This document shows, one piece after another, positions 14,061-61,709 of a stretch of DNA of 64,000 nucleotides. The notes beneath the pieces were generated by a model. The model saw only the letters and a list, made by a program, of their open reading frames with translations. It was not told where the DNA came from and made no database searches. Position numbers and translations under genes: made by a program. Each line of letters begins with the position of its first letter. Position 1 is the first letter of the stretch. The DNA is from a virus (Duplodnaviria > Heunggongvirae > Uroviricota > Caudoviricetes). The stretch lies in IMG/VR virus record IMGVR_UViG_3300028840_008153, positions 35,143 to 99,142 of that record, one strand, 5' to 3'.

Positions 14061-14344
14061 GCCGTTCCCTTAATGAACTTGTGGTAGCGGCTTATCGCAC
14101 CCTTCAGCGTGGGCCGAACATTGTAAGCCCTGTGCGTGTGCGTCTCGTACCACGTCTTCCCGTCAACGACCGCCTTGCCCACTGCCGGCGTTGCCTCGCC
14201 GTTGGGCCCATGGTGCCAGACAGCCTTGGCATCCATGACCTGCTTGCGCTCTTCGGGCGTGAGCTTGACCTTGTTCTTTTTGAGGGTCTCCCACTTAGGA
14301 CCCTTCGTAGCCTCTTTGATCAGAAACAGGTGACAATCCATCAT
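14057..14344 (-). CDS. Small basic hypothetical protein with FLIKEA motif
   Basis: MMDCHLFLIKEA...; coupled to both neighbours by overlapping start/stop codons. Confidence 0.65.
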   Translation of the reverse strand: MMDCHLFLIKEATKGPKWETLKKNKVKLTPEERKQVMDAKAVWHHGPNGEATPAVGKAVVDGKTWYETHTHRAYNVRPTLKGAISRYHKFIKGTA

Positions 14345-28672: not shown

Positions 28673-29161
28673 CTACCGTGTCAAACGACGAACCAGCTTT
28701 CGAACACGTGGTGACGCGGGCCACTCTTCTTCCAGAGCTTCCTCCTCGCCAAAAAGCGATTCTGGCCGAGGCGTTTCTGGAGCAACCATGATGGGCGCCC
28801 CCGCAGCAACTTCTTCAAGGTACTGGCGATGCGAGGCCGGCGCCGTTGCTGTCAATGCGCCCAAACCGAGACCGCCCAGTACGCCTCCAGCGAGTGCGGG
28901 CCATCTGCCCTTCGTGCCGGCGAGACGAGCAAGTCCCAGCCCCGCGCCCGCGCCAACTCCAGCACCAACGCCGCCACCAACGAGTCCCCGCAAAAGAGGG
29001 TCGCCCTGACTGGTCTCGTAGGAGGACAAGATGTCCTCCAACTGTTGGGCCTCGATCTCGGCCCGACGCTGCCGCTCCAAAGCCTTGCGGCGCATGGCCT
29101 CCATCTGGATGTCAGCCGTGGCAATGGCCTGTTTGATCAGGAAGGCTCCCGCTTTGTCCAT
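28673..29161 (-). CDS. Glycine-zipper protein with FLIKQA motif
   Basis: MDKAGAFLIKQA; two GxxxG hydrophobic stretches. Confidence 0.6.
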   Translation of the reverse strand: MDKAGAFLIKQAIATADIQMEAMRRKALERQRRAEIEAQQLEDILSSYETSQGDPLLRGLVGGGVGAGVGAGAGLGLARLAGTKGRWPALAGGVLGGLGLGALTATAPASHRQYLEEVAAGAPIMVAPETPRPESLFGEEEALEEEWPASPRVRKLVRRLTR

Positions 29162-46235: not shown

Positions 46236-48485
46236 TTATCCCAGAACGTCGGTCAGTTCGGCTTCAGGCTCCTCGGCCATCTCCGGCTCGATCGTCTTCT
46301 GCTTCAGGAACAGGGCCAGCTCGCCCAGATTCTTGAAGACGTTGCGCAGGTTGTCCTCAAGCTCGGTCATGTCCTGCTGGCCGTAGCGCTCCTTGAACTG
46401 GTCATAGTGCCAGTAGTACATGAACAGGATGCGGCCCACGCGGTCCAGTCCCAGCAGCAGGTCGCTGATGTACTTGTCGACGGCGTCGTCGACGTCCATC
46501 GTGTTGACCAGTCCCGAGATCACGGCCGTATCGAGCACTTCCTTCTGGCCGGTCTGCGCGGCGTCCTGCGCGTATTGCTTGACGGCCGCATCCATCTCCC
46601 GGTCGTCCCGATAGTGCTCACGGTTGTGACCCATGGAGTCGTTGAGGTTCTGCAGCTCCACGTGGGGATACTGGATCGGCGCCGGAATGCCGTACTCGTA
46701 CCCCTGAGGCGGCTCGGGGAAGTACCCGCTGATGGGCTGGTTCTGCGCCTGCTTCACGTAGAACGTCTCGGCCTTGCGCGGGCGCGCCTGCTTGATCAGG
46801 AACTCCGCGTCCTCCTGGCCGAAGTTCTGCTGCACGATCAGGTGCTTCAGACAGGCCAGCTTGGACATGGGTTTGCAGATGTGACCGTTGATCACGGGCA
46901 CGTAGTTGATGCCGTCGGTGCGAAGCTGAAGGCGGTAAACGCCTGATTTGCCCTCCTGCGCGGTCTTGTAGAGCTGCAGCACGCACTCGGACAGGGAGCC
47001 CAGATCATTGGTGCCGTTCATGCCGCCCTTCCACGTGTTGGGCAGCTGAATGCCTTTCCACGTGTTGGGAATGAACAGCGTGCTGCCGATCTGCGTGGCC
47101 CGTTCGCCGTCCTTGCCCGTGAGCACGATGGACTTCACGTGCGCGTCGCCCCCGTCATCCTCAGCGAGAACGGGCACCGGCCGGGAGCGCTTGTTGCGCC
47201 ACGAGCTGCTGCCGGAACTCTCGGAGATGCAGGTCTGACCATAAACGGCCATTTCGGTCTGGCCTTCGCCGTTGGTCCGCTTCTTCGTGACCTCGAAGAC
47301 CATCGTGCCATTGCTGCCGTCGGGCGAGACCAGCATCGCATACTGATCGACCTTGAGCTGCTTCGGGTTGATGAAATCCCGTTTGAAGCACTCCTGCCAC
47401 TCGCCGTTGTCCAGCCGCTTGCAGATGAACACGTCGTTGGAGAAGTAGTTGCCGAAGCGCTTGCCCTTGGGCGAGACCACCACGGCCGTGCCGGGCCTCG
47501 GATCATAGCCCACCTTGTCGGGCGCGGTCAGCACCAACACCTGCTCGGCGTTGCCGTTGGCCGTCAGGATCTCATAGAAACCGTTCTCACTGGGATTCTG
47601 CAGCTGCCGTGAGATCTGCGACTTGTACATCCTGGCCTTGCTGTCGTCGGAGCGCTCGTCCTTGACCACGTACTGATCGCGCATGAGCTTCTTCTTGTCG
47701 GCTTCGGAGAGGCCGTGCGCGTCGGCAGTGTTGTCGTCGCCGCGCGTGACCACGACCACGTCGGGCGCCGTGTCCTCGATCTTCTTGTCGCCCGTGTCCG
47801 CGCGCTTCTGGTAGTTGACGTTGACCAGGTCCTTGATGTCGTAGTAACGGAGCACCGCATTGGCGAACTTGACGTCATCACGCATCGACTTGATGAGCGT
47901 GTAGACGCTGTCGCGCCCCGCCGTCTTCAGGAAGTTGGGCAGGTGGCAACGGTCCGTCACCTCCGCGTACTTCTCTGCGTTGGGCCAGTTCTGCGGGAGG
48001 AAGACGTCCATGAACGGCTTGTAGTCGTCGTCCAGCCCCTTGTAGATGCTCTGGAGGGTCCGGCGCTCGGCGGCGTACTTCGAGCCCATGTGCGGCGTGC
48101 GGGCAAAGATGTCGAAGTCCGGCTGGTTGAGCGCAAGGTCCTTCTTGGGCGTCGGTTCCGGCGAACCCAGCACCGGCGGGCGCCGGTTGAGAAGGTAGTT
48201 GACCCAGGACTCGATCAACGGAACGAAGGCGTCCTGGGACTTGATGTACATCAGCTCATGTCCCTTCAGCTCCCCGTTGATGAAGAACACTGGGGCGTAC
48301 ACCCACTCGCTGGCCACCTTGAAGCCGAAGACACCGACGGCGTGCGTCTCGTCGTCGTTCTTGTCTATCAGCTGGAAGCCGATGAGATCGTCGAGCAGGC
48401 TGGGCGCCTTATCACGCAATCTGGCATACGCCAAATCGGCGAACGTGCGCTCAAAGTTGGCATCCGTAGAGGTTGGCCCCGGCAT
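46236..48485 (-). CDS. Large hypothetical head-associated protein, 749 aa
   Basis: Folded N-domain, then segments delimited by KYA, KTA, KRA, KTA and KQA; no portal signature recognised. Confidence 0.6.
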   Translation of the reverse strand: MPGPTSTDANFERTFADLAYARLRDKAPSLLDDLIGFQLIDKNDDETHAVGVFGFKVASEWVYAPVFFINGELKGHELMYIKSQDAFVPLIESWVNYLLNRRPPVLGSPEPTPKKDLALNQPDFDIFARTPHMGSKYAAERRTLQSIYKGLDDDYKPFMDVFLPQNWPNAEKYAEVTDRCHLPNFLKTAGRDSVYTLIKSMRDDVKFANAVLRYYDIKDLVNVNYQKRADTGDKKIEDTAPDVVVVTRGDDNTADAHGLSEADKKKLMRDQYVVKDERSDDSKARMYKSQISRQLQNPSENGFYEILTANGNAEQVLVLTAPDKVGYDPRPGTAVVVSPKGKRFGNYFSNDVFICKRLDNGEWQECFKRDFINPKQLKVDQYAMLVSPDGSNGTMVFEVTKKRTNGEGQTEMAVYGQTCISESSGSSSWRNKRSRPVPVLAEDDGGDAHVKSIVLTGKDGERATQIGSTLFIPNTWKGIQLPNTWKGGMNGTNDLGSLSECVLQLYKTAQEGKSGVYRLQLRTDGINYVPVINGHICKPMSKLACLKHLIVQQNFGQEDAEFLIKQARPRKAETFYVKQAQNQPISGYFPEPPQGYEYGIPAPIQYPHVELQNLNDSMGHNREHYRDDREMDAAVKQYAQDAAQTGQKEVLDTAVISGLVNTMDVDDAVDKYISDLLLGLDRVGRILFMYYWHYDQFKERYGQQDMTELEDNLRNVFKNLGELALFLKQKTIEPEMAEEPEAELTDVLG

Positions 48486-48947: not shown

Positions 48948-50786
48948 CTAGTACCCCTTGCCCTTGGGAACCCTTCCAAACTCCACGCCCTTGGCCAGTG
49001 ATGGAATGTAGGAGGTGCCGTGCTCATCAGAGGACTGGGTGCGGTGAACCGCCTTGGTCAGTCCCGATCTGAGGTGGAATCCTCCCATCCGAACCATCCA
49101 ATCCGAACTGTGTGAAAGCGTCTCCATCGCGCGCGTCATCTCGGGCGTGAAGGAGGGCGCGTCTGCGTGTGCCTTAACAGCCTTTACGCCGTATTCCCCC
49201 AACTCCTTGGCGACCCTCGGCGTAATCTTCGTCCCGATCGAATAATGCAATGCCGGGGATTCAAGGTATAACCCAATGCCCCGCTTCGGCGCAACCGTTT
49301 TGAATCCAAACCGTGGCCGATAACCACGCGTCATCGAGTCAAATTCTACCACGTCATCGGGCACCGTATCCTCGGGGCCGTCCAGGTCGGAGATGCGCAC
49401 GTGATTGATGAGTCCCCGTGAAAGCAGCTCCACGTTGCGACGGTTGGCGGAGAAGTTACTGTCGTTCATGGCCTTCAGGAACTGCTGCGTGTAGTAACGC
49501 CGCCCCTCCCCAACACCCTTGTACTTCACGATCTCTGCGGGGTTGGGAAGCCCGCTCGACAGTACATCGCCGGCTTCCACACGATCGCCCTTCTTGGCTT
49601 TCAACTCCTGGTGCGGAGGAACCCAAGTGCGTGTTCCGGCAATAGTTACGTACTGCCCGCCCTGTGGGGCTTCCTCTATTGCATCCACTCTGCCATCGAG
49701 CGTCGCCAGTGCCGCGCCGCCCTGAAACGTCTTGGGCACCGAGACCAACTGCTCGATCAGATCCATGCCGGTCTTCTGCGAACTGGCATCGGCCTGCCCG
49801 CCCGTATGCTTGGCGGAAAGCTGCCCCTGGCCGATGGGTTCGGCGATGGCTTGCGCCGCAGCAATGCCGATATTGTCTCCCAAAGGCGGGAAACCGCCAC
49901 GCTCACGCACGCCCGCGCAGTGCTGACAAACGCCGTCCTGGGCCTGACAAGTAATGGGCGAACGCACAATGATTTTCTTGTCGCCCAGCTTGCGAAGATC
50001 CTTCGGATGGAGCACCGATCCGGCCGACATGCCGCCTGCTTTTTGGGCCAGAACCGTGCCCTCGTTGTCGGGATCGGAGGCGTCCACAGGAACCCCGTTG
50101 GCCGTGCCGCAGTCCTTCTCCGTGACGATCAGGCGATGCGCGGCCATTGCCAATTGCTTGGCCAGGAAGCCGGAACGGGGCGTGGCGAACTTGACGCTCA
50201 CGTAGCCTTTTCGCGCCCCGTAAGCCCCCGCCCAATACTGCACGGGATCGAGCCCCTCGGAGTAGGAATTGAGCAGTGGAATCGGTATGGGCCTGTCCTT
50301 GTGATCGACTACGAGCATGTCGCCCGCGTTGAGCGCCCTGAGCTGCCCGGCGTTCCCGCGTGCGCCCGACACAACCTGCAACGCCAAGGGGTTGTTGCTC
50401 TTCTTGGCCTCCGCAAAGGTCTGGTCGGTTGTCTCGTCAAGACGATCGGCGATCAGCTTGATGATCTTCCTGTTCTTGGTTTCCTCGTCAGCGCCGGACT
50501 GCGCGACGGCGTTGATGCTGCGCGCCAGGTTGCGGCGGGAGACCTCCACGCTCTTGGGCGTGCGCAACGACTCCAGCGAGAGGCTGGTCACGCCGCCGTA
50601 CGTGGTAGCCGCGTCCTGGGCCAAATTGTGCAGCTTGTGATTGAAGTCGGCATACTTGTCGGGGTAGCGATCGGCCATCTCCTGAAAGAGCGTCTTGAGC
50701 GTCTTCTTGTCAATGACGCGCTTGTAGTCCCGAAGGTCTTCGGGAAGGTTCTCATTCAGAAGAAGTTGTCCGACCGTCGTCTGCAT
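48948..50786 (-). CDS. rpoC: DNA-directed RNA polymerase beta' subunit, C-terminal half
   Basis: TTVGQ, SGARGN, SYSEGL...GARKG (bridge helix), EKDCGT, VRSPITC...GVCQHC (Zn site), AAQAIAEP...KHTGG (trigger loop His). Confidence 0.93.
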   Translation of the reverse strand: MQTTVGQLLLNENLPEDLRDYKRVIDKKTLKTLFQEMADRYPDKYADFNHKLHNLAQDAATTYGGVTSLSLESLRTPKSVEVSRRNLARSINAVAQSGADEETKNRKIIKLIADRLDETTDQTFAEAKKSNNPLALQVVSGARGNAGQLRALNAGDMLVVDHKDRPIPIPLLNSYSEGLDPVQYWAGAYGARKGYVSVKFATPRSGFLAKQLAMAAHRLIVTEKDCGTANGVPVDASDPDNEGTVLAQKAGGMSAGSVLHPKDLRKLGDKKIIVRSPITCQAQDGVCQHCAGVRERGGFPPLGDNIGIAAAQAIAEPIGQGQLSAKHTGGQADASSQKTGMDLIEQLVSVPKTFQGGAALATLDGRVDAIEEAPQGGQYVTIAGTRTWVPPHQELKAKKGDRVEAGDVLSSGLPNPAEIVKYKGVGEGRRYYTQQFLKAMNDSNFSANRRNVELLSRGLINHVRISDLDGPEDTVPDDVVEFDSMTRGYRPRFGFKTVAPKRGIGLYLESPALHYSIGTKITPRVAKELGEYGVKAVKAHADAPSFTPEMTRAMETLSHSSDWMVRMGGFHLRSGLTKAVHRTQSSDEHGTSYIPSLAKGVEFGRVPKGKGY

Positions 50787-50787
50787 A

Positions 50788-52668
50788 TCAGGTGCCTATG
50801 GCCAATGGGCGTTCCTTGGGCTTGGGTTTGCTGGCAAGTGCCGGGTTTGGCTTTTCTGGCAGCGCCGGGAAAAGACTTGCCGTTCCCTTGCCATACCGGG
50901 CACGATCGACGGCTGCTGCCGTTCCGGGGGCCGGAAGATCAGAAGGTTCGGGTGTTTCGGGGAAGTTGGCCGGGTTTGGTTCCTGCCGTTTGGCCATGAA
51001 CTGCTCGAAGCTCCCCTGAAAAGATGGCGGCGTCTGCCCGCCCGTAAAGCCCGCGCGCTCGGCCAGTCCGACGGTGCTCGGCTGCGCGCCTGGAGCCTCG
51101 CCCCTGAGACGGAAGAAGGCGTTGGTGCCCATGCGTCGCTGAAGATCCCTGCGTGCCGTGTCGCTCGAAGGGATTCCGGCCGTGTCGGAACGAACGGCCC
51201 AGCCGCCCGGCACCTGCGTTGCTCCCTCGGGAGCCTGCGGAATGCCGGCCCCCTGAACGCCGGGGCTGGGAGCGCTGCGAGGCGCTCGCGTGCCGCCGGA
51301 AGGATCGTAGCGCGTGCCACCGGTCTGTGTGGCGCGCGGTCCGGCCGGCCCGCCGATCCCGTAATGCTTCTCCAGCGCGGAGCGAAGTCCGTAGTTGCCC
51401 CGCGCGGCGTAGCGGATGGCCCGTGCCTGATCTCGTGGGTCTGTCAGCCCTCTCATGTTGATCTGATTGATGGCTTCCTGCATCCGTCCCTTCGCGCCAA
51501 CCTGCCCCATCTCCTCGAACTTGGACGCCTGTCCTTGGCGCTTCGCCAGGGCCGCGCGCGTGGAGGCCAGCATCTCATCAACGCTCTTGGGCTGCTGCTG
51601 CCCTGCCGTGCCGCCCGGAGTAACCTTTCCGCTTTGCAGCTGGTTCCAATACGCGCGTCCTTGGTGGCCCCAACGCCCCGCGCCGGGCGTTGTTCCGCCC
51701 GTAAACGGATTTACACTCCCGCTTTGAAAGGCCGGTGACGCTCTGGGGGGCACGCCTCCAGCGGGCGCCGCCGGAGCCGCTGTCGGGGCCGCTGCCGGGG
51801 CTCCCTGCATTTGCTTGAACTCGTTCTTTGAAAGCGGCTGCTTGCCGCGCGGCAGATTGCGAAGGTACGTCTGGTACGACGCCTCCTCCTGCGCGCCAAA
51901 ACCACTGAGATCGATCCCCGTGCTGCTGTGAAGCTGCTTAAGCCCGCGCCCTGTTGCACGCGCCCATTCTTGGCTCCACGGGTTCAGCCAGTTCCAATTG
52001 GAGCGTCTTTGTGCGTCTGCCTGCGCCAAATCCGAAGCGTAGTCGCTGGTCTTGAGAAGCACGTGCATCGCTGCCTGGTCTTCCTCGTCGAAGCCCGCCT
52101 GCTTGCAAAACAGGTCCACGCCGTGATCGAAGGCAAGCTGCTGCTCCCCATCACGCTCGGCGCTGCCCCAATGCATGAATGGCTGTTGACTGTACATGGG
52201 TCGCGCTCCCATCCGATACCGAGGCGTCCTCGTGACGCTTTCCATTCCGTGGCTGCTGAAGGGGGTATATCCTTGCGCCCTCGGATAACCTTGGCTGCCC
52301 GGATACCCCTGCGCTCCCGGGTATCCACCCTCTCCAGGCATTCGGGGCTGTTGCTGCTGGCCTCCGCCAAGCAGCTCTCCGGCCATGGGGACGAACGAAC
52401 CCACCATGGCGAGACTGCCAAGACGGTTGAGCCATGTGTCGAAACCGCCGCCGGCTGCAGGCGCTGCCGCGCCAGTGGCCTTCGCTGCCGTACCTGCGGT
52501 TCGTGCCGTATTGGCCGCTGTACCTGCGGTTCGCGCCATGTTGGCGGCCGTACCGGCTGCACGCGCGCCGCGCGCGGCACGCCACGCGCCCCACGCACCA
52601 CGTAACGCGCCCCAGAAAGCCCGCTTCTGGAGCGCTTGTTTGATTAGGAAACTCTCAGCGTCTCGCAT
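50788..52668 (-). CDS. Low-complexity Ala/Gly/Pro/Gln-rich protein with FLIKQA motif
   Basis: MRDAESFLIKQALQKRAFW; internal repeats; AFDHGVDLFCKQAG motif. Confidence 0.6.
   Translation of the reverse strand: MRDAESFLIKQALQKRAFWGALRGAWGAWRAARGARAAGTAANMARTAGTAANTARTAGTAAKATGAAAPAAGGGFDTWLNRLGSLAMVGSFVPMAGELLGGGQQQQPRMPGEGGYPGAQGYPGSQGYPRAQGYTPFSSHGMESVTRTPRYRMGARPMYSQQPFMHWGSAERDGEQQLAFDHGVDLFCKQAGFDEEDQAAMHVLLKTSDYASDLAQADAQRRSNWNWLNPWSQEWARATGRGLKQLHSSTGIDLSGFGAQEEASYQTYLRNLPRGKQPLSKNEFKQMQGAPAAAPTAAPAAPAGGVPPRASPAFQSGSVNPFTGGTTPGAGRWGHQGRAYWNQLQSGKVTPGGTAGQQQPKSVDEMLASTRAALAKRQGQASKFEEMGQVGAKGRMQEAINQINMRGLTDPRDQARAIRYAARGNYGLRSALEKHYGIGGPAGPRATQTGGTRYDPSGGTRAPRSAPSPGVQGAGIPQAPEGATQVPGGWAVRSDTAGIPSSDTARRDLQRRMGTNAFFRLRGEAPGAQPSTVGLAERAGFTGGQTPPSFQGSFEQFMAKRQEPNPANFPETPEPSDLPAPGTAAAVDRARYGKGTASLFPALPEKPNPALASKPKPKERPLAIGT
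52265..52330 (-). repeat. 18-nt coding repeat GYP(G/R)xQ, three to four copies
   Basis: GGYPGAQGYPGSQGYPRAQGY. Confidence 0.6.
52480..52570 (-). repeat. 30-nt coding tandem repeat (ARTAGTAANx, three copies)
   Basis: GTACCTGCGGTTCG recurs at 52490 and 52520. Confidence 0.7.
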
Positions 52669-54572: not shown

Positions 54573-57500
54573 CTACTTGACGATCACCCGATCGCCCAGC
54601 GAAATGTCGCCCTTCTTGTACGCCTTGATCACATCCGCCTTGCTGGCGAACACGCGCGGGGGCGTGTCCTTCTTCGCCGTGCTGGCGAGGTAAAGACCCA
54701 TCAGGAACTCCTGCTTCGGCAGGTAGTGAACCTTGAAATTGGACGATGACTTGAGGTTCTTGGACGGCAGCATCTTCTCAACCGCATCGGTCACGGCCTC
54801 GTCGGTGACAGGCACGTGGTAGTTCATCGCGTCGCCATCGAAGTCGGCATTGAAGCCCGGTGTCACCACGGGAGAGATCTGCAACGTCTCGCCCTTCGTG
54901 AGCACGGGCCACGCGGCCATGAAGCCGTAACGGTGAAGCGTGGGCGCGCGGTTGATCAGCACCGGGCGCTTCTGTGTCTCGGACACCAGCGCCTTTCTGG
55001 CAATCGGCGTCTGGTTGGCCACGGCCTCGGCTGCGGCCATCGCAGGCATGCCCTCGCGCACGAGCCTGCGCATGATGAACGGGCGATAGATGGTCCACGC
55101 CTTGGGCTCGGGCAGACCCACCTGATCCATGTTCAGATCCGGGTTGGGCGTGATGGTGGCCCGTCCCACGATGTCCACCGGAGCGCCAAGAACCCTGCGC
55201 TGGAACATGCCCAGCTTCGGGCTGGTGCCGAAAACGTGCTTCAGCAACCCCTTGACCTTCTTCTCCTTGGTCTTGGCCTGAACCGGATCGCCCAGCCCGG
55301 TGACGGCCTTGAAGGCGTTGTAGACCTGCAGCCGCTCGTCTGCGGACGAGTCCACGTCCACGACTTCCCGAATCTCCTTGAGCGTGTCGTTGGAGTTGAT
55401 CAGATCCTGGTAGAGCAGGTTCGCGTCAGCCACCAGCGGCACGTCCCTGTACTTGCCGATGGGACGGAAGGACGGCGGGATGACAGGCACCTTCGTCATC
55501 ACCCAGTCCTCGGGTCTGAGCTTGTTCTTCTGCATGTTCTTGAGGTAGCCCAGAACCTTCACGGCCTTGTCACGCTTGGAGCGCGGGCCCTCACGAATGA
55601 GCTGCTCGTTGGTGGCGATTGCATCATCCAAGTTGATGTCTGACAGCGCCTTATGAATGGCCTCGCCGCCATACTTGCCCTTGTACGGGACCTTGCCGCC
55701 GATCCACTGCTCGTACTGGTTCTGCGTGAGGTTCAGCAGCCGTCGAATGGGCTCCTCCATGACCGGATTGGGAATGGGTTCGCTCAGTTCGATATGGGAC
55801 CAACGCGCTCCCCCGTGCCCTCCGGTCAGCCCACGATCGAAGAGGCCGCCGCCAATCTCGTCCAGCGAGTCGCCCGCCACGGTCTTGGGGCTGGTCAGCC
55901 CGCCCGACGAGAGCTTGGTCACGTCCTTGTCGGTCATGGCGAACAGCTGCATCCGCTCGCCGTCCTTCTTGACGTTGATGCCGGCGCCCTGCAGGTGCGT
56001 GAGGAACTTGTCGTAGACCATCGGCACCTTCGGCGAAGGCGGCGTCAGGCCCAGACGGAAAGCCCGCCAGAAATCATCGTTGCGTTGCCCACGAATAACC
56101 TGCGCATCCCTGAGCACCTCGGTCGCGCCGTGAGAAAGGAGCGCGTTGATCTCCATGTTGGAGATGCGCTTGGCGCCGAACTCCCCGCCCTTGGCCGGTA
56201 GCCCCTCGCTGGTGTACGCGCCCACGTCACGCCCCCGCCCCTTGGATTCGGCGGTGTGGTGCAGTTTGTAGATGAAACGCTCGCCCGTGAGAATGTTTTT
56301 GACCTTGCGGCCCGTGGTGGGATCGAAGACGTCGTCGGTGTCCTTCATCCCGGCGTCCTGCAGTTCCTTCTTCACGAAGTCGACCATCGACTCTTCGCTG
56401 AAGCCTGGAACCTTGTATGCCTTGCCGCGCTTGCGGGCGATCTTGCCCAGCAGCGCCTCGTGGACCTGGGAGGGGTTGCCGCGCGAGATGATGCCCAACG
56501 GGTTGAGCAGGATGTGGTACGGATTCCCGTCCTTGTCGTGGACCATCTGGTCGTCGGGAATGATCTTGGCGATCACGCCCTTGTCGCCGTAGCGGCCGGC
56601 CAGCTTGTCCCCCTCGCGCGCGGGCATGTACGCCTTGACGGTGACGTTGTAGCCGCCGCCCTTGGTCTTGTCGATGTCGGTGACGACGCCCTCGGCCTCA
56701 TGGTTCCACGTGACGGCATTGTCGGAGAACATCGTTTTGTGGCCACGGTGGACGGCCGTGGGCTTGGCCTTGTTGAGCGAGAGAATCAGCGGGTCGCCGT
56801 ACTTCACCACGGTGCCGGGCTTGACCACACCCTTGCTGTCGATCGTGCCCAGCTGCTCCTTGTTGAACTGGCTCGGGTAGATGGAGACGTATTCCTTCCT
56901 GCCGGTCAGGATCGTGGGATCGCCCTCGACCTCGTGCTGGTACATGTGCTCCGAGGACATCATCTTGGCCGCGCTCTCGGAGACCACCACCGCGTCCTCG
57001 TAGTTGAGCCCCTTGTACGGCATGTAGGCCACCCGCAGGTTGTTGCCCATGGCCACGGCGCCCTTGTCATCCGTGTAGTTACTCTTGGCCAAAAGCTGGT
57101 TGGGCTTGATCTGGTCGCCGATCTGGACCACGGGCGTGTTGTGCAGGAAGGTCTTCCGATTGAACGGGAAGTTCTGGTAAAGCTCGTGGTTCTCCTTGGT
57201 TCCGTCGGCGTAGCGGACCTGCACGTAGTCCTTGCCAACGTCGGTAACCACGCCCCGGTCGCGTGCGCGCACCGCACCCACGCGCGTGCCCAGACGCTCA
57301 TCGAAGGACTCATCGCCCTCATCACCCACGAGGTTCTGGACCAGCGGCGCCTCGGGGTTCTTCAGCGGCAGCGACTGGATCACGTACTTGGCGCCCATCA
57401 GCAGGCGCCCGCCCTTGATGCCGCTGACCATCGGCGTCATGTTCGAGCTTGCCGTGAACATCTGCGAGGTCTTGGGCAGCTCGAAGTCCACCTGATCCCG

Positions 57501-60029
57501 GTCCACGAACTGGACCTGGCGGGAGCGGACCATGGCCCTGACCTTGGGCGTGTCCTTCGCCATTTCTCCGGGGAAGGCCACCACGGAAGCGGCGGCCTGC
57601 GCGGCCGAAACCATCTCGGGCTGACCCGTCTTGGGGTTGCGCATGGACGTGTAGAAGTGCCCATCGCTTCCGCGCACCACGCCTTCGGCAACCCTGGAGT
57701 CAACTCCGATCTTGGAGGACTCGGGAGCCCGGATCGGGTCGATGAACCCGAACTGGCTGGGCTGCACGTTCCTGGCTTCATCGGGCACCGCGTCAAGGCT
57801 GGGAATGCCGCCTTCGCCAAGGCGCAGGATGCGCAGGTTCTGGTCGTACAGCTCCATCGGGTTGACTTCTTCGACCGGCATGCCCATGCCGCTTTTCAGC
57901 AGCACGCTGTAAAGCTGGGGCGTGAGGGCGCCAGTCGGAATATGCTGGACGTTCCCCCGCAAGGTGGAACGCCACAGCATCTTCCGTCCCAGTTGCCCGG
58001 CATCCTTGCGGATGCGTTCGGCGAAGAAGTCCTCTGGCGAATGCAGCGTCTGGAAGGCCAGCGAATCACGATCGTCGATCTCTTCCTTCTTGTTGAAGAT
58101 GTTGAGCAGCTTCTGCGACGTGCGAAGCAGTGCCGAAGGCCCGGCGTGACGGTGACGTTCGCCCAGCGTGATGTCCGTCGTGTCCTCGTCCAGTTCCATC
58201 TTGTTGAAGACGTTCAGCAGCCCCTCGCCCTGTTCGTTCGGAGCGCCCAACGTGAAGCCGCCGCCAACGCCGGCCGCCGCACGCTTGCAGCCGAAGATCT
58301 CCTCGGCGCGCTTGATGGGCGTGTTGGGCTTGTGCACGGCGAACGTGATGTGGAAGCGGTACTCGTGCCCGTTGTCCTCGCCCTTCGGCAGCGGGGTCAG
58401 CCCCAGGCTCTTGCGGTAGTTCTTCAGGTCCGGGCTGTCACACTCGATGAACCAGACCCGGTCGACATCCTTCCATCCCGCAGGCGACAGGCTCACAAGA
58501 CGCTTCAGAGCGAAACGCGCGGGCGTGCCGTCCCGGGCAAAGCCTTTCCACTTCATGGGGCCGTGCTTCTTGTAAATCTTCTTGGCCTCGTCCGCTCGCA
58601 CCAGTGTGATGTGGGGAGAATTGGGGGTGCGTTCACACTCAACGCCCTCTCCCTTGAGAGAGGACAGCGCCGCATCCACCAGTCCCTTGTGGACATCCAG
58701 GTAGACCCACGGCTCACCCTTCTTGCCGATCTCCGCGCGAATGGTGCCACGGAACCAGAGGCGCTGCCATTTGCGGTCCGACTCGCGTGCGCCGATCTTG
58801 GCTTCCTTCTGCCACGAAGCCTTCTTCAGCACCATCTTGCCGATGACCTGCTTCTGTATCTTGTCCCAGGACGGAAGCGCGCTGATGCCACGATCATCCA
58901 CGTAGACGTCGGCCGTGACCTTGCCCGAACTGTACGGAGGCTGATCCGGGTTCTCGTTGATGTAATCGTAGGGAAGATCGTGCTTATGCAGGTAGTCCCC
59001 GATCAGCTTCTTGTCGCCACGGACCGTGAAGATGATGATCCGGTAGCCAAGGCGCTGGAACTCCTTCAGAGCCTTCTGCACGCCCGGGCGGGGCTTCGGA
59101 ATGCTCTTGGCATCGAACTTCTTGTACATCGTGGCGATCGTGCCGTCGAGGTCAATGGCCACGGTCGGAGGGCGTGTTCTGTCGGCAGCCGCCTTGGACT
59201 GCTGTTGCTGCAGCTTTTCCTTGTCGAGCTGCAGTATCTCCCTGTTGGCCTTCTGCTCGGACTGCGCGTCCTCCTGCAGGTCACGGCGGTTGACCAGCGA
59301 CGTGAAGGCACGGCCGACGGCGCCAGGGTCATCGGCCTGCGCGTTGGCCTGCAGCAGTTCGTTGCCCCAGTATTGGCGGATGTCCCTGTCCTGCACGCCC
59401 ATGGCCTTCAGGATCGGGTAGAGCTTCAGCGTCGATTGGCCCACACGCAGGCGGAAAAGCCCGGTCTGCGGCTCCATGTAGACGCGAAAGGACGGCCCCG
59501 TGCCCGGCTTGACATTAACATGCGCTTCCAGGGTTCCGTTGTCCTTGACTCGCGTGTAAACGCCGGGCCGAAGCCGCATCTGGTTGGCCACCGTGTACTC
59601 GTTGCCACGGTAGATGAATGTCCCACGATCGGTGGCGTAGGGCACGTGCGCGATGGTGCCGGCCTTGCGGTCCATCAACTTGTTGGTGGCCTTGTCGAAC
59701 AGGTGCCACTCGCCCGTGATCTTCCGCTCCAGCGACTTGCCCTGCATGATGGCCTTCTTCTGGTCGGCCAGCGAGAAGCGGTCCTTCTTGTCGAGGGCGA
59801 CGTTGCGAAGCTCAAGCCTGTAGCGGCTGTTCTCAAGCGGGTAGGCGGTGGACAGCGTGTCCATGACGTTGTTGAAGATGCCGTCACGCATCGTCTTGTT
59901 GTCGCCGAACCCACGGTAGGAGACGGGTTCGACGGGACGCAGCGGCAGCGGCTCCGGCGGCTTCACGGCTGGAGCGACCGGGGGCGCTGCCTCCTTAACG
60001 ATGCACAGCACGTCATCAAGTATCGCCAT
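54573..60029 (-). CDS. rpoBC: RNA polymerase beta::beta'(N-half) fusion with inserted HAD and 2H domains
   Basis: beta motifs GNNLRVAYMPYKGLNYED, GDKLAGRYGDKGV, LNPLGIISR and KLHH; beta' motifs HIEL, VPVIPPSFRP, NRAPTLH and catalytic NADFDGD (54851-54831). Confidence 0.95.
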   Translation of the reverse strand: MAILDDVLCIVKEAAPPVAPAVKPPEPLPLRPVEPVSYRGFGDNKTMRDGIFNNVMDTLSTAYPLENSRYRLELRNVALDKKDRFSLADQKKAIMQGKSLERKITGEWHLFDKATNKLMDRKAGTIAHVPYATDRGTFIYRGNEYTVANQMRLRPGVYTRVKDNGTLEAHVNVKPGTGPSFRVYMEPQTGLFRLRVGQSTLKLYPILKAMGVQDRDIRQYWGNELLQANAQADDPGAVGRAFTSLVNRRDLQEDAQSEQKANREILQLDKEKLQQQQSKAAADRTRPPTVAIDLDGTIATMYKKFDAKSIPKPRPGVQKALKEFQRLGYRIIIFTVRGDKKLIGDYLHKHDLPYDYINENPDQPPYSSGKVTADVYVDDRGISALPSWDKIQKQVIGKMVLKKASWQKEAKIGARESDRKWQRLWFRGTIRAEIGKKGEPWVYLDVHKGLVDAALSSLKGEGVECERTPNSPHITLVRADEAKKIYKKHGPMKWKGFARDGTPARFALKRLVSLSPAGWKDVDRVWFIECDSPDLKNYRKSLGLTPLPKGEDNGHEYRFHITFAVHKPNTPIKRAEEIFGCKRAAAGVGGGFTLGAPNEQGEGLLNVFNKMELDEDTTDITLGERHRHAGPSALLRTSQKLLNIFNKKEEIDDRDSLAFQTLHSPEDFFAERIRKDAGQLGRKMLWRSTLRGNVQHIPTGALTPQLYSVLLKSGMGMPVEEVNPMELYDQNLRILRLGEGGIPSLDAVPDEARNVQPSQFGFIDPIRAPESSKIGVDSRVAEGVVRGSDGHFYTSMRNPKTGQPEMVSAAQAAASVVAFPGEMAKDTPKVRAMVRSRQVQFVDRDQVDFELPKTSQMFTASSNMTPMVSGIKGGRLLMGAKYVIQSLPLKNPEAPLVQNLVGDEGDESFDERLGTRVGAVRARDRGVVTDVGKDYVQVRYADGTKENHELYQNFPFNRKTFLHNTPVVQIGDQIKPNQLLAKSNYTDDKGAVAMGNNLRVAYMPYKGLNYEDAVVVSESAAKMMSSEHMYQHEVEGDPTILTGRKEYVSIYPSQFNKEQLGTIDSKGVVKPGTVVKYGDPLILSLNKAKPTAVHRGHKTMFSDNAVTWNHEAEGVVTDIDKTKGGGYNVTVKAYMPAREGDKLAGRYGDKGVIAKIIPDDQMVHDKDGNPYHILLNPLGIISRGNPSQVHEALLGKIARKRGKAYKVPGFSEESMVDFVKKELQDAGMKDTDDVFDPTTGRKVKNILTGERFIYKLHHTAESKGRGRDVGAYTSEGLPAKGGEFGAKRISNMEINALLSHGATEVLRDAQVIRGQRNDDFWRAFRLGLTPPSPKVPMVYDKFLTHLQGAGINVKKDGERMQLFAMTDKDVTKLSSGGLTSPKTVAGDSLDEIGGGLFDRGLTGGHGGARWSHIELSEPIPNPVMEEPIRRLLNLTQNQYEQWIGGKVPYKGKYGGEAIHKALSDINLDDAIATNEQLIREGPRSKRDKAVKVLGYLKNMQKNKLRPEDWVMTKVPVIPPSFRPIGKYRDVPLVADANLLYQDLINSNDTLKEIREVVDVDSSADERLQVYNAFKAVTGLGDPVQAKTKEKKVKGLLKHVFGTSPKLGMFQRRVLGAPVDIVGRATITPNPDLNMDQVGLPEPKAWTIYRPFIMRRLVREGMPAMAAAEAVANQTPIARKALVSETQKRPVLINRAPTLHRYGFMAAWPVLTKGETLQISPVVTPGFNADFDGDAMNYHVPVTDEAVTDAVEKMLPSKNLKSSSNFKVHYLPKQEFLMGLYLASTAKKDTPPRVFASKADVIKAYKKGDISLGDRVIVK
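58290..58780 (-). other. 2H phosphoesterase domain inserted in RNAP beta
   Basis: Two HxT motifs 87 aa apart: PHITLV (58613-58605) and FHITFA (58352-58344). Confidence 0.8.
58830..59175 (-). other. HAD-superfamily phosphatase domain inserted in RNAP beta
   Basis: Motif I VAIDLDGT (59153-59139), motif II IIIFTVR, motif IV VYVDDR (58898). Confidence 0.85.
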
Positions 60030-60031
60030 GT

Positions 60032-61228
60032 TCAGGTCCGAAGGTTGGCTTCAGTATCGACGGGCTCCGGCACCTCGACCAGGATCGGGGCCGGCTGCCG
60101 CATGCGCTTCTTGCGCAGCTCCTCCTTGACGGCTTTGTACTTCTGCTGGCGCGGATCACGTGACTTGACCCAGCTTTCCGAAGCCGTGTGCGCGCCGTAG
60201 CCCAGCAGGGACGCCAACGCCAGGTAGGCGCCCAGTGCCTGATTGATCTCGCCCTGCGCGCTTTTCACGTGCGCCTGGGCCAGCCCGTCGATCAGCTCCC
60301 CGGCCGTTTTTGCCGTCTTGCGCGCCGCGTACTCCGCAGCCAACGCCTTCTCATACTCCTTCTGAGCCTTGGCGATGGCCTTCTCCGTCTCTTCGGCCCG
60401 CAGGATGTCGGCGTCCTCGTCGGCCTGGGAAAAACCCTCATGGAAGGCTTTGGGCACCGTGGTGGCAAGTCTCGGGTAGTACGAGACCAGCGTGCTGGGA
60501 TCGTCCGTCACGCGGCGTGCCTCACGCGTCTTCTCGGAGATGGTGCGGGCAGCCTCGGCCAGAGCGCTCTCGGCGGCCATGCCCACGGGCGCGAACATCT
60601 CGCCCAGCACGCCGCCTTCCTTCTCGCGCAGCTCCTCAGCCTCTTCCCTCGTCTCCTCGGCCTCGCCTTCCATCGCATCCAGCCGATTGTAGTAATCGGG
60701 AATCTCTTCGAGATGATCCTTGGCGATCTCCTTGGAGCGTTCGGGATCGCTGGTGTGTTCCATCTCGACCCTTACGCCCCTTGAAAGCTCACGAAGGTCG
60801 TACCGGGTGTCAGGCTTCCTGTCGGCCAGACCGCCCGCCAGAAGATCAGCCTGCTTCGAGCGCAAACGGGGCTCATACCAGCCCTGCTTGATGGCCGGCA
60901 GGTCCACGACCACCTCGCGTCCCGGCATGCCTCTGCCCACGTCACGAAGAAGAGGCTCTTCCTCCTCGCGCTTGCGTGCGCGCATGCTGTAGCCCATGCT
61001 GCGAGCACGTTCCTGCAGGTCCTCGATGTTGGCCTGGGCTTTCTGCTCGGCTTCTTCCTCGCTGGGCAGAATGAACGGGCGCAGCCGTGCCTTCTGCTTC
61101 TCCAGATCGGTCTTCCACTCGGGCGTGTCTCCCCTTTGAGCCAGCAGGGAATTGAGCATCCCCTTCCAGTCGATACCGCCGCTTTCGGCCAGCATCATCT
61201 CATTGGCCCGCTTTGCGAATTCACCCAT
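60032..61228 (-). CDS. Inner-head-type protein with a DUF5661-like module
   Basis: ATG 61228 overlaps the upstream stop; GVRVEMEHT...IAKDHLEEIPDYY at about 60856-60670; hydrophobic helix near the C-end. Confidence 0.6.
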   Translation of the reverse strand: MGEFAKRANEMMLAESGGIDWKGMLNSLLAQRGDTPEWKTDLEKQKARLRPFILPSEEEAEQKAQANIEDLQERARSMGYSMRARKREEEEPLLRDVGRGMPGREVVVDLPAIKQGWYEPRLRSKQADLLAGGLADRKPDTRYDLRELSRGVRVEMEHTSDPERSKEIAKDHLEEIPDYYNRLDAMEGEAEETREEAEELREKEGGVLGEMFAPVGMAAESALAEAARTISEKTREARRVTDDPSTLVSYYPRLATTVPKAFHEGFSQADEDADILRAEETEKAIAKAQKEYEKALAAEYAARKTAKTAGELIDGLAQAHVKSAQGEINQALGAYLALASLLGYGAHTASESWVKSRDPRQQKYKAVKEELRKKRMRQPAPILVEVPEPVDTEANLRT

Positions 61229-61709
61229 CGGTCTTGGCCCCCGGCGTCTCAACCATGTAACCGTAATAGAGAATCCAGCGTATGAAGACACGCCAGCTCT
61301 TGATCGCGTTGTCGTACTTGCGTTCCTCGACGGAGATCTGCGCGAACCCGTTGCCCACCAGCTGGAGGATCTGCTGGTAATACCGCATGTCCTCTTCGTT
61401 GGAGAGATCCAGCACGTTTGCGAAGATCTGCTGCCCCACCTGCGGGCGGAACTTGTCGGGGTCGGCCTCCTTCAGATCCGGGATCGAATCGCCCCGGAAC
61501 GGCAGCCCTTCCAGTCCCGGCAACACCATCGGCTGCGTGAAAACCCCAGCCGGGTCAATGAGCTTGTCAGGCAGCTTGGCCCGCCCCCGCTTGTCCATCG
61601 AGATCTTCAGCGACGGGGCGGCCGGAGCGGCGGGAGCAGGTGTCCCCGCCGTCACCTCCTTGGCTTCCTTGGCTTCCTTGGCCTTGTCACCATTCTTGGG
61701 CAGGATCAC
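61221..61709 (-). CDS. Hypothetical protein
   Basis: GTGA overlap start; 162 aa; folded C-domain. Confidence 0.6.
   Translation of the reverse strand: MILPKNGDKAKEAKEAKEVTAGTPAPAAPAAPSLKISMDKRGRAKLPDKLIDPAGVFTQPMVLPGLEGLPFRGDSIPDLKEADPDKFRPQVGQQIFANVLDLSNEEDMRYYQQILQLVGNGFAQISVEERKYDNAIKSWRVFIRWILYYGYMVETPGAKTDG

What the first reader, a model, noticed from the sequence alone, without database searches (positions are those of the whole stretch)
58260..59270. HAD phosphatase plus 2H phosphoesterase nested inside the RNA polymerase beta subunit
Seen: about 330 aa interrupt beta between ...VNRRDLQ and GLLNVFNKMELD. They comprise a Gln/Glu coil, SKAAA, a complete HAD domain (DLDGT/FT/DDR), KKASWQKEA, a complete 2H domain (two HIT motifs) and KRAEE..CKRAAA. 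Known: 2H enzymes open 2',3'-cyclic phosphates or degrade cyclic oligonucleotides (T4 Acb1 is a 2H anti-CBASS enzyme), and DxDGT HAD domains remove 3'-phosphates (T4 Pnkp). Inference: a virion-packaged RNAP carries an RNA end-healing or signal-destroying pair, and K-x-A cleavage may release both enzymes while splitting beta. Delivery with the DNA would place counter-defence in the cell before any phage gene is expressed.
Basis: partly seen in the sequence, partly recalled or inferred. Interest (0 to 1): 0.9.

Follow-up and report, generated by a model that had tools for sequence, protein, structure and literature searches.

The report
Enzyme cargo inside phage RNA polymerase
A large marine phage has inserted two intact phosphate-removing enzymes into a surface lobe of its own, probably virion-packaged, RNA polymerase, flanked by what look like protease cut sites, so the polymerase may also carry early-acting helper enzymes into the host.

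Summary
The gene at window 54573-60029 (-) encodes an 1818-aa RNA polymerase (RNAP) beta fused to the N-terminal half of beta'. About 345 aa (residues ~252-596) are absent from Salmonella phage Arash gp206 and from at least 16 metagenomic relatives.

- **What the insert is.** It is a helix, a capless HAD phosphatase, a linker and a 2H phosphoesterase. All catalytic motifs are present and conserved in relatives.
- **Assembly.** It is not an assembly artefact. Contigs from two studies span both junctions.
- **A variable cargo site.** In close relatives this beta-lobe site holds 2H alone, HAD+2H, SET+HAD+2H or HAD+DUF5661+2H. In two relatives beta is split here into two genes.
- **Origin of the modules.** The HAD and 2H modules are 45-60% identical to modules of phage polyvalent proteins, including portal and Mu-F fusions.
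- **K-x-A motif.** It marks module borders: 72-90% of border windows against 16-35% background. It also ends an N-terminal leader on six proteins of this phage, the RNAP included (0.2 expected).
- **Packaging.** The Arash homologue is the most-detected protein in purified virions.

Packaging, cleavage and substrates remain untested. RNA-end healing and destruction of immune signal nucleotides cannot be told apart here.

This scan noted the same architecture earlier on another genome, with a pyrophosphatase as cargo.

The parts
54573..60029 (-). RNAP gene: beta fused to the N-terminal half of beta' (1818 aa), carrying the insert
   Evidence: Single ORF. Pfam RNA_pol_Rpb2_6 at 1.2e-48 and Rpb1_2 at 9.9e-25. 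Closest solved relatives are bacterial beta and beta' (E about 1e-65 and 1e-52).
59988..60029 (-). N-terminal 14-aa leader ending in V-K-E-A (candidate capsid-targeting and cleavage leader)
   Evidence: The pattern of three hydrophobic residues then K-x-A occurs 8 times in the phage proteome. Six of these lie within the first 30 residues, against 0.2 expected. The leader is conserved in close homologues P0004, P0011 and P0007.
59283..59987 (-). beta N-terminal part (aa 15-249), up to the insertion point
   Evidence: Aligns to Arash gp206 aa 12-~226. In relatives L038 and L039 it is a separate gene.
59172..59279 (-). Gln/Glu-rich helix (aa 251-286) containing the first K-x-A site (K279-A-A281)
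   Evidence: AlphaFold helix at residues 2-36 of the insert model. The motif was located.
58830..59171 (-). Capless HAD phosphatase domain (aa 287-400): DLDGT 293-297, Thr335, Lys370, Asp378-Asp379
   Evidence: phrog_1238 at 1.6e-27. Profile match to PDB 2obb at 3.7e-12. VIA-align: 2obb Z 12.4, T4 Pnkp phosphatase Z 8.8. Motifs conserved in the aligned homologues, apart from D-N in place of D-D at motif IV in P0033.
58800..58829 (-). Inter-domain linker (aa 401-410) with two K-x-A sites (KKA and KEA)
   Evidence: The pLDDT minimum of the model falls here, with 10-residue blocks of 76 and 57. Split-gene relatives start their 2H-beta gene exactly at this motif, e.g. M-E-T-K-E-A-K-I-G-A.
58314..58799 (-). 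2H phosphoesterase domain (aa 411-572): His473-x-Thr475 and His560-x-Thr562
   Evidence: Pfam 2H-SAK at 33.8 bits, above its cut-off of 27. The domain model (pLDDT 89) matches only 2H-superfamily folds in the top 21 rows: Acb1 Z 7.2, penguinpox cGAMP PDE 7.2, Usb1 6.6, LigT 6.4. Both His residues are at least 90% conserved in 64 sequences.
58221..58313 (-). C-terminal linker (aa 573-603) with K573-R-A and K582-R-A, leading back into beta
   Evidence: Low pLDDT, with blocks of 64 down to 36. Of 58 related 2H modules, 52 have K-x-[A/G] in this window, against a 35% background.
54576..58220 (-). Rest of beta plus the N-terminal half of beta' (aa 604-1818), with NADFDGD at aa 1727-1733
   Evidence: Aligns to Arash gp206 aa 232-1516 at 32% identity. 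Pfam domains.
48948..50786 (-). Separate gene for the C-terminal half of beta' (612 aa)
   Evidence: Pfam RNA_pol_Rpb1_5 at 2.2e-19 and phrog_25354 at 2.6e-44. It is 26% identical to Arash gp216.

Best explanation
**Shown.**
- The gene encodes the large subunit of a phage RNA polymerase, with beta fused to the N-terminal half of beta'.
- Its beta lobe contains an in-frame, variable cargo bay. Here the cargo is a capless HAD phosphatase followed by a 2H phosphoesterase, both with complete catalytic motifs.
- These modules belong to the module pool of phage polyvalent proteins.

**Inferred.**
- The polymerase is packaged into the capsid, guided by its short N-terminal leader.
- The head-maturation protease cuts after K-x-A at the leader and at the module borders.
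- Cutting would free a ~14-kDa HAD and a ~19-kDa 2H enzyme. It would leave a two-piece beta like the one that relatives encode as two genes.
- Polymerase and enzymes would then enter the host with the DNA.

**Proposed chemistry.** The 2H domain opens, or makes and then opens, 2',3'-cyclic phosphates. The HAD domain removes the resulting 2'- or 3'-monophosphate.

**Most likely substrate.** I favour RNA ends left by metal-independent defence RNases, that is, end healing before ligation. Cyclic or 2'-5'-linked immune signal nucleotides are a close second.
For: **Insert and motifs.**

**A variable cargo site**.
- At least 16 relatives have no insert.
- Relatives whose flanks are 85-93% identical carry 2H alone (P0011) or HAD + unknown module + 2H (P0004).
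- Others carry SET+HAD+2H, SET+2H or HAD+DUF5661+2H.
- Modules diverge faster than the flanks. In P0004 the HAD is 64% identical while the flanks are 88-93% identical.

**Link to polyvalent proteins.** The modules are 45-60% identical to modules in proteins that also carry InPase, NUDIX, LigD_N, ART-PolyVal, portal and Mu-F domains. Forty of the 174 retrieved proteins carry both HAD and 2H.

**K-x-[A/G] at module borders**.
- 108 of 151 sites before a HAD (background 16%).
- 72 of 145 sites after a HAD (background 25%).
- 52 of 58 sites after a 2H (background 35%).
- In this protein the sites coincide with the three pLDDT minima of the model.

**Leader and head proteins.**
- Six proteins carry the leader, against 0.2 expected.
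- K-x-A is over-represented in the putative protease (12 against 3.5 expected) and the putative scaffold (13 against 6.3).
- The major capsid protein has a single site, at aa 31-33.

**Natural split of beta.** In L038 and L039 the N-terminal part of beta is a separate gene. The 2H-beta gene starts at the K-x-A motif, and in L039 leader-bearing genes lie between the two.

**Virion association.**
- The gene lies among head genes that are syntenic with Arash.
- Arash Gp206 and Gp216 are abundant in purified virions (PMC10585845).

**Precedents from the literature.**
- The beta subunit of the virion RNAP of phage 201phi2-1 is processed by its prohead protease, and T4 uses capsid-targeting leaders (PMC5694885).
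- N4 virion RNAP occurs as a polyvalent protein (PMC5512222).
- 2H followed by HAD has been proposed as sequential RNA end-healing steps in jumbo phages (PMC7824862).

**Other end-repair enzymes.** The same genome encodes a leader-bearing protein combining an SNF2 helicase, a LigD 3'-phosphoesterase and an ATP-dependent ligase.
Against: - No experiment shows packaging, cleavage or activity for this protein.
- The Arash virion proteome lists 116 proteins, so some carry-over of abundant non-structural proteins is possible.
- The protease gene is only weakly identified (phrog_18299, E 8.5e-4).
- The K-x-A counts come from homologous modules, so they are not independent events.
- K-x-A is not enriched across the whole proteome: 217 observed against 205 expected.
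- No polynucleotide kinase module was seen in the cargo cassettes.
- Iyer et al. 2017 noted that polyvalent-type 2H domains do not associate with RNA ligases, and favoured an RNase or signal-degrading role.
- The top structural matches of the 2H domain, tied with others, are cGAMP-degrading enzymes.
Confidence: 0.55

Rival explanations
1. Same cargo architecture, but the target is immune signalling. The 2H domain linearises cyclic or 2'-5'-linked nucleotide messengers (CBASS, type III CRISPR and similar), as Acb1 and the poxvirus cGAMP phosphodiesterase do. The HAD then strips the terminal phosphate.
For: - The top structural matches are Acb1 (7t27, Z 7.2) and penguinpox cGAMP PDE (Z 7.2).
- Iyer et al. 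2017 proposed this role for polyvalent-type 2H domains, which do not associate with RNA ligases.
- Delivery with the DNA would be well timed against signalling defences.
Against: - The Z scores are tied within 1 unit with Usb1, LigT, ns2 and CPDase, so the fold does not discriminate.
- Acb1-type enzymes work without a phosphatase, so the frequent HAD partner (40 of 63 proteins with 2H) is not explained.
- There is no sequence-level match to Acb1.
Confidence: 0.3
2. The insert is a permanent, uncut lineage-specific insertion of beta. It would act in cis for the polymerase, for example by trimming cyclic-phosphate or 3'-phosphate RNA ends so that cleaved transcripts or primers can be extended.
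For: - Bacterial beta subunits tolerate large lineage-specific insertions in the lobe.
- The AR9-type phage beta is fused to an HD phosphohydrolase (PMC7824862).
- The beta subunit of the SPN3US virion RNAP keeps a region that a related phage cleaves off.
Against: - The same site holds unrelated modules such as SET and DUF5661, and a pyrophosphatase in another genome of this scan.
- The site is empty in most relatives.
- Relatives split beta here.
- The modules are shared with portal and Mu-F fusions.
- By established RNAP architecture (from memory), the lobe is far from the RNA exit channel.
Confidence: 0.12
3. The 2H domain is an offensive RNase, Usb1-like, that produces cyclic-phosphate ends and attacks host RNAs early in infection. 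The HAD would be an unrelated nucleotidase.
For: - Usb1 is among the tied structural matches (Z 6.6).
- Iyer et al. 2017 list this as one of two options.
- BFVD matches of the HAD include proteins named 5'-nucleotidase.
Against: - It gives no reason for the recurrent pairing of HAD and 2H.
- No RNA-binding module is evident.
- An RNase tethered to the phage's own polymerase would endanger phage transcripts.
Confidence: 0.08
4. The insert is an artefact: a chimeric assembly, an intein or another selfish element, or a decaying gene.
For: Some homologues carry inteins and LAGLIDADG domains elsewhere in the RNAP (P0010, P0015, P0024).
Against: - Contigs of 89.7 kb and 29.9 kb from two studies span the whole region with no differences.
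- The same architecture occurs in independent metagenomes at 52-66% identity.
- There are no stop codons, and GC content equals that of the flanks.
- No Hint or intein domain is found in the insert.
- The catalytic motifs are conserved.
Confidence: 0.02

Closest known systems
Phage polyvalent proteins (Iyer, Burroughs, Anand, de Souza, Aravind 2017; PMC5512222), including N4-like virion RNAP fused to effector domains
   Same: Several unrelated enzymatic modules sit in one chain encoded among late or virion genes. The HAD and 2H modules here are 45-60% identical to modules in proteins carrying InPase, ART-PolyVal, ddrB-ParB, portal and Mu-F domains. The predicted logic is also the same: deliver effectors with the DNA, possibly after proteolytic release.
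   Different: The carrier here is a bacterial-type multisubunit RNAP beta-beta' chain, not the single-subunit N4 enzyme. The cargo is inserted inside a folded domain (the beta lobe) rather than appended. No MPTase domain is present. Instead the borders carry K-x-A, which looks like a prohead-protease motif.
Virion RNAPs of phiKZ-like jumbo phages (phiKZ, SPN3US, 201phi2-1)
   Same: These are multisubunit RNAPs packaged in the head and ejected with the DNA, with beta and beta' split into pieces. In 201phi2-1 the beta subunit is trimmed by the prohead protease (PMC5694885).
   Different: This enzyme is much closer to cellular beta and beta' (E about 1e-65). It is fused rather than multiply split, it carries enzymatic cargo, and the putative cleavage motif is K-x-A rather than (S/A/G)-x-E.
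Salmonella phage Arash gp206/gp216 and Vibrio phages D69, D148 and D181
   Same: They have the same beta-beta'N fusion with a separate gene for the C-terminal half of beta', set among head genes (32% identity). Arash Gp206 is the most-detected virion protein (PMC10585845).
   Different: They have no insert at this site; about 7-10 residues stand in its place.
RNA end-healing enzymes: T4 Pnkp phosphatase domain, LigT/CPDase, and the 2H module of the 'Swiss Army Knife' protein (Pfam PF22547)
   Same: The HAD has the DxDGT nucleophile motif and a capless fold like the Pnkp phosphatase (Z 8.8). The 2H domain passes the 2H-SAK model and has both HxT motifs.
   Different: No kinase or ligase sits in the same chain. 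Pfam HAD_PNKP scores 18.8 bits, below its cut-off of 27.6. The closest HAD structure is an uncharacterised Bacteroides protein (2obb).
Anti-CBASS Acb1 and poxvirus cGAMP phosphodiesterase (2H fold)
   Same: Same 2H fold and His-x-Thr pairs. They are the top structural matches, although tied with others (Z 7.2).
   Different: There is no sequence-level relationship. The match is no better than to Usb1, LigT or ns2.
T4 internal proteins and Alt, with their capsid-targeting sequence
   Same: A short N-terminal leader shared by unrelated proteins ends at the putative protease motif (T4 facts as cited in PMC5694885).
   Different: The motif is hydrophobic-hydrophobic-hydrophobic-K-x-A rather than L/I-x-E. 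Here it also recurs internally between modules.

Membership tests
2H phosphoesterase superfamily (Pfam 2H-SAK, PF22547) | Two His-x-Thr/Ser motifs | tested here: met
   H473-I-T475 and H560-I-T562. Both His residues are at least 90% conserved in 64 homologous modules.
2H phosphoesterase superfamily (Pfam 2H-SAK, PF22547) | Profile score above the curated threshold, and the 2H fold | tested here: met
   33.8 bits against a cut-off of 27. The top 21 structural matches are all 2H enzymes.
HAD phosphatase superfamily | Motifs I-IV (DxDGT, Thr/Ser, Lys, DD) on a Rossmannoid fold | tested here: met
   D293-x-D295-G-T, T335, K370 and D378-D379. They are conserved in homologues, except that one has D-N at motif IV. 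Fold matches: 2obb Z 12.4 and many HADs at Z 8-10.
T4 Pnkp-type polynucleotide 3'-phosphatase (Pfam HAD_PNKP, PF25109) | Profile score above threshold, and association with a 5'-kinase domain | tested here: not met
   18.8 bits against a cut-off of 27.6. No kinase domain is present in the chain. Structural similarity is present but not the best (Z 8.8).
Acb1 anti-CBASS nuclease family | Specific structural or sequence similarity beyond the general 2H fold | tested here: inconclusive
   7t27_A scores Z 7.2 (rmsd 3.5, 106 residues aligned), tied with penguinpox PDE 7.2, Usb1 6.6, LigT 6.4 and ns2 6.4.
Acb1 anti-CBASS nuclease family | Hydrolysis of cyclic di- and trinucleotides | not testable with these tools
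   Requires an enzyme assay.
Phage polyvalent proteins (Iyer et al. 2017) | Several unrelated effector-type domains in one polypeptide, drawn from the shared module pool | tested here: met
   HAD and 2H occur here, with SET, DUF5661 and others in homologues. The modules are 45-60% identical to those in proteins with InPase, ART-PolyVal, portal or Mu-F domains.
Phage polyvalent proteins (Iyer et al. 2017) | Late or virion gene context, with packaging and injection | tested here: inconclusive
   The context is met: the gene lies between the portal and the major capsid protein, syntenic with Arash. Packaging is known only for the Arash homologue, from the literature. Injection is untested.
phiKZ-type virion RNAP | Orthology to the phiKZ/AR9 split beta and beta' families | tested here: not met
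   The best solved relatives are bacterial beta and beta' (E 1e-65 and 1e-52). PHROG families of jumbo-phage RNAP subunits match far more weakly than phrog_24349 and phrog_25354.
Intein or homing element | Hint splicing domain, with or without a homing endonuclease, in the insert | tested here: not met
   No Hint, intein or LAGLIDADG hit in aa 240-610 at E up to 1.
T4-like capsid-targeting leader | Short N-terminal leader shared by unrelated head-cargo proteins and ending at the protease motif | tested here: met
   Six of the eight proteome-wide occurrences lie within the first 30 residues, against 0.2 expected. The RNAP is one of the six. Function in targeting or cleavage is not testable here.
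Lineage-specific insertion of bacterial beta (e.g. E. coli beta SI1) | Insertion in the beta lobe between conserved regions | tested here: met
   A profile of insert-free relatives aligns colinearly with M. smegmatis beta residues 94-663. The site falls at about residues 273-284 (the R-P-G-E-P-P-T loop). The content differs, being enzymes rather than a structural repeat.

The most novel reading that the evidence does not exclude
The RNAP beta gene is in effect a polyprotein. The head-maturation protease cuts after K-x-A inside the capsid and releases free HAD and 2H enzymes, or SET, pyrophosphatase and other enzymes in relatives. It leaves a two-piece beta polymerase. All of these are ejected with the DNA, so that a matched pair of enzymes neutralises RNA-cleaving or nucleotide-signalling defences before any phage gene is expressed. 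The beta-lobe site would then be an evolvable slot for swapping counter-defence cargo.
Probability: 0.35. Interest if true: 0.85.

Novelty: new variant of a known kind. Interest (0 to 1): 0.68.

Why it matters
If correct, a core transcription enzyme also serves as a delivery vehicle, with an exchangeable cargo slot marked by protease sites.

- It would extend the polyvalent-protein idea from appended domains on the N4 single-subunit polymerase to domains nested inside a cellular-type multisubunit polymerase.
- It would define a new head-protease motif (K-x-A) and a new capsid-targeting leader.
- It would give a simple way to discover early-acting phage effectors: read what sits in this slot. 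Contents seen so far are HAD, 2H, SET, DUF5661, a pyrophosphatase and unknown modules.
- It shows a natural split point in beta that could be useful for engineering split RNA polymerases.

Tried and rejected
- **First alignment unusable.** The MAFFT alignment of the N-terminal 760 aa with Arash and D69 mis-aligned the insert. Pairwise BLAST was used instead.
- **Genes upstream of the split forms.** I expected the genes directly upstream of the 2H-beta genes in L038 and L039 to be the N-terminal part of beta. They are not. That gene lies one or two genes further upstream.
- **Unannotated neighbours.** Pfam and PHROGs gave nothing for most neighbouring genes, for the genes between the split halves, or for the extra module of P0004.
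- **Other copies in the genome.** None of the HAD or 2H module was found.
- **RNA ligases.** PF09511 (Rnl1-type RNA ligase) has no match in the contig. PF09414 gives only a weak match, inside the 1212-aa SNF2-LigD-ligase protein. The contig is an estimated 78% complete, so absence proves little.
- **Fold searches.** With the two-domain model the HAD filled the result list, so the 2H domain was folded and searched alone. Foldseek on the 2H model gave no match at E <= 0.001. BFVD rows named 'prohead protease' had rmsd of about 20 and were ignored.
- **Sequencing runs.** No RNA holder was listed for the stretch.
- **Literature.** Searches found no paper on the Burkholderia phage BCSR5 phosphodiesterase. 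No paper was found describing enzymatic cargo inside a multisubunit phage RNAP beta.
- **Not run.** No complex prediction was run.

Full report
**1. What is there**

The window is part of a 163-kb viral contig (GC 0.61; estimated 78% complete). Window 54573-60029 on the minus strand is one open frame of 1818 aa. Pfam finds RNAP beta domain 6 (1.2e-48) and beta' domains 1 and 2, and the frame ends after the NADFDGD catalytic loop. It is therefore beta fused to the N-terminal half of beta'. The C-terminal half of beta' is a separate gene at 48948-50786.

The closest solved relatives are bacterial beta and beta' (E about 1e-65 and 1e-52), not the split jumbo-phage enzymes. The closest isolates are Salmonella phage Arash and Vibrio phages D69, D148 and D181 (about 32% identity).

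**2. The insert is real**

BLASTP against Arash gp206 aligns aa 41-~250 and aa 596-1809, leaving about 345 residues unmatched.

- The 2H domain passes Pfam's 2H-SAK threshold (33.8 bits against 27).
- The HAD matches phrog_1238 at 1.6e-27. That family's label 'phosphoheptose isomerase' is probably a mis-annotation of a small HAD.
- AlphaFold with an alignment of homologous modules gives pLDDT 88 for the insert and 89 for the 2H domain alone.
- The HAD matches PDB 2obb (Z 12.4) and many HADs at Z 8-10, including the T4 Pnkp phosphatase at 8.8.
- The 2H model matches only 2H enzymes in its top 21 rows: Acb1 7.2, penguinpox cGAMP PDE 7.2, Usb1 6.6, LigT 6.4, MHV ns2 6.4 and CPDase 6.0. These are effectively tied.
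- The catalytic residues of both domains are conserved across homologues.
- The GC content of the insert equals that of the rest of the gene.
- Contigs of 89.7 kb and 29.9 kb, from a sediment run and a seawater run of different studies, span the whole stretch with no differences. Either run may be the source of this DNA. The same architecture also occurs at 52-66% identity in other metagenomes.

An assembly chimera, an intein and a decaying gene are therefore excluded, as far as contig data allow.

**3. The site is a cargo slot and a natural split point**

*Contents of the site.* Among IMG/VR and protein-database relatives, at least 16 have no insert here. Those closer than about 57% identity carry variable contents:

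| Contents of the site | Examples |
|---|---|
| 2H only | P0011 (flanks 85-88% identical), P0013, P0020 |
| HAD + 2H | this window, P0005, P0012 |
| HAD + unknown glycine-rich module + 2H | P0004 (flanks 88-93% identical) |
| HAD + DUF5661 + 2H | P0007 |
| SET + HAD + 2H | P0008, P0009, P0010/L007 |
| SET + 2H | P0014, P0015 |

The 2H module is always the last one before beta resumes. The modules are less conserved than the flanks.

*Split forms.* In two relatives (L038, a 204-kb NCBI contig, and L039) beta is encoded in two genes. The N-terminal part (64% identical to aa 37-249) is one gene. One or two unrelated genes follow. Then comes a gene that begins at the very motif preceding the 2H module here (M-E-T-K-E-A-K-I-G-A...) and continues through 2H, the rest of beta and the N-terminal half of beta'.

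*Position on beta.* A profile of insert-free relatives aligns colinearly with M. smegmatis beta residues 94-663. It places the site at the R-P-G-E-P-P-T loop, about residues 273-284, in the lobe region. From memory, this is some 20 residues upstream of where E. coli beta SI1 is inserted.

**4. Link to polyvalent proteins**

The HAD and 2H modules are 45-60% identical to modules in long phage proteins that also carry InPase, NUDIX, LigD_N, ART-PolyVal, ddrB-ParB, portal or Mu-F domains.

An exhaustive search found 1918 proteins at E <= 1e-3. Of the 174 proteins retrieved by the two searches, 40 carry both modules. Outside the RNAPs the 2H is N-terminal and the HAD lies downstream.

These are the polyvalent proteins of Iyer et al. 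2017 (PMC5512222). That paper already lists 2H and InPase as phage-type modules, and the N4 virion RNAP as a carrier of effector domains. I found no paper that describes such cargo nested in a multisubunit RNAP beta.

**5. K-x-A and the leader**

K-x-[A/G] is enriched at module borders:
- 108 of 151 windows before a HAD (background 16%).
- 72 of 145 windows after a HAD (background 25%).
- 52 of 58 windows after a 2H (background 35%).

In this protein the sites at aa 279, 402/408 and 573/582 coincide with the three confidence minima of the model.

Following a lead from another note on this window, I confirmed an N-terminal leader. The pattern of three hydrophobic residues followed by K-x-A occurs eight times in the proteome. 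Six occurrences lie within the first 30 residues, against 0.2 expected, and the RNAP is one of the six. Close homologues keep it.

K-x-A is over-represented in the putative head protease (12 against 3.5 expected), the putative scaffold (13 against 6.3) and a head protein homologous to Arash gp218 (10 against 3.5). The major capsid protein has a single site, at aa 31-33. This is the pattern expected of a prohead-protease motif with a T4-like capsid-targeting leader.

Caveats:
- The border windows come from homologous modules.
- The proteome as a whole is not enriched (217 against 205 expected).
- The protease is only weakly identified.

**6. Virion association**

The gene lies in a head-gene block. 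On the same strand the order is portal, RNAP, the gene for the C-terminal half of beta', homologues of Arash gp218 and gp222, and the major capsid protein. This is syntenic with Arash.

In Arash, Gp206 gave the most spectra of any protein in gradient-purified virions (3516). Gp216, a sigma factor and two RNA ligases were also detected (PMC10585845).

**7. Mechanism**

Shown:
- Two intact, conserved enzymes.
- A variable slot at a natural split site.
- Modules shared with polyvalent proteins.
- Enrichment of the motif and of the leader.

Inferred:
- Capsid targeting.
- Cleavage after K-x-A into the N-terminal part of beta (~30 kDa), HAD (~14 kDa), 2H (~19 kDa) and the rest of beta with the N-terminal half of beta' (~137 kDa).
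- Ejection with the DNA.

Chemically the pair fits sequential action: 2H opens a 2',3'-cyclic phosphate and HAD removes the monoester. Iyer et al. 2021 propose this sequence for RNA end healing in jumbo phages.

The genome also encodes a leader-bearing protein combining an SNF2 helicase, a LigD 3'-phosphoesterase and an ATP-dependent ligase. I therefore rank healing of RNA ends cut by defence RNases slightly above destruction of cyclic or 2'-5' nucleotide signals. The second reading is supported by the Acb1 and cGAMP-PDE matches and by the argument of Iyer et al. 2017. The data do not decide between them.

The presence of SET and DUF5661 in relatives, and of a pyrophosphatase in another genome noted by this scan, argues that the slot carries cargo rather than parts of the transcription machinery.

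**8. Verdict**

I class it as a new variant of a known kind: polyvalent or ejected effector proteins, and virion RNAPs. The same architecture was reported earlier in this scan on other DNA.

Noticed in passing
window 11481-11828, 14057-14344, 28673-29161, 50788-52668 (all minus strand), and G000:C1:135122-136876: Unrelated proteins begin with a 10-17-residue leader ending in F/L-L-I/L-K-x-A. Six of the eight proteome occurrences of the motif are N-terminal, against 0.2 expected. This is a candidate capsid-targeting leader.
   Followed up: partly
window 41295-42755 (-), 39982-41289 (-), 46236-48485 (-), 37896-38843 (-): K-x-A is over-represented in the putative head protease (12 against 3.5 expected), the putative scaffold (13 against 6.3) and an Arash gp218-like head protein (10 against 3.5). 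The major capsid protein has one site, at aa 31-33, as if a short propeptide is removed.
   Followed up: partly
G000:C1:105001-108639 (-), outside the window: A 1212-aa protein combines an SNF2 helicase, a LigD 3'-phosphoesterase and an ATP-dependent ligase. It has a leader-like N-terminus and K-x-A sites between its domains. It is another polyvalent-type nucleic-acid end-repair protein.
   Followed up: partly
L038:3222-10233 and L039:987-9363: In these relatives beta is split into two genes at the insertion site. Of the intervening genes of unknown function, those in L039 begin with similar leaders (Y-I-I-K-S-A and F-I-I-D-Q-A).
   Followed up: partly
window 60032-61291 (-): The gene immediately upstream of the RNAP (2-nt gap) contains DUF5661 (PF18905, 3.2e-11). 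The same module sits inside the RNAP insert of homologue P0007.
   Followed up: no
window 54573-54900 and 48948-50786: beta' is split soon after the catalytic loop. The N-terminal half matches cyanobacterial gamma subunits up to about residue 556 of about 625, so the split is near, but not at, the cyanobacterial and chloroplast rpoC1/rpoC2 split. No alpha subunit was looked for.
   Followed up: no
window 56256-60200 (+): A 1314-aa ORF lies antisense to the RNAP gene. It has no family match and is most likely a shadow frame of a GC-rich gene.
   Followed up: no
proteins P0010, P0015, P0024 (homologous RNAPs): Some homologues carry intein and LAGLIDADG domains (PF14890, PF14528) elsewhere in the RNAP, on top of the cargo cassette.
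   Followed up: no
protein P0004, aa ~390-633: A close homologue has an extra ~250-aa module between HAD and 2H. It has glycine-zipper-like hydrophobic stretches and no Pfam match, and may be a membrane-active cargo.
   Followed up: no
window 57900-59600: The identical sequence occurs in contigs of a sediment metagenome (2018) and a seawater metagenome (2021) from different studies, which suggests a marine host.
   Followed up: partly
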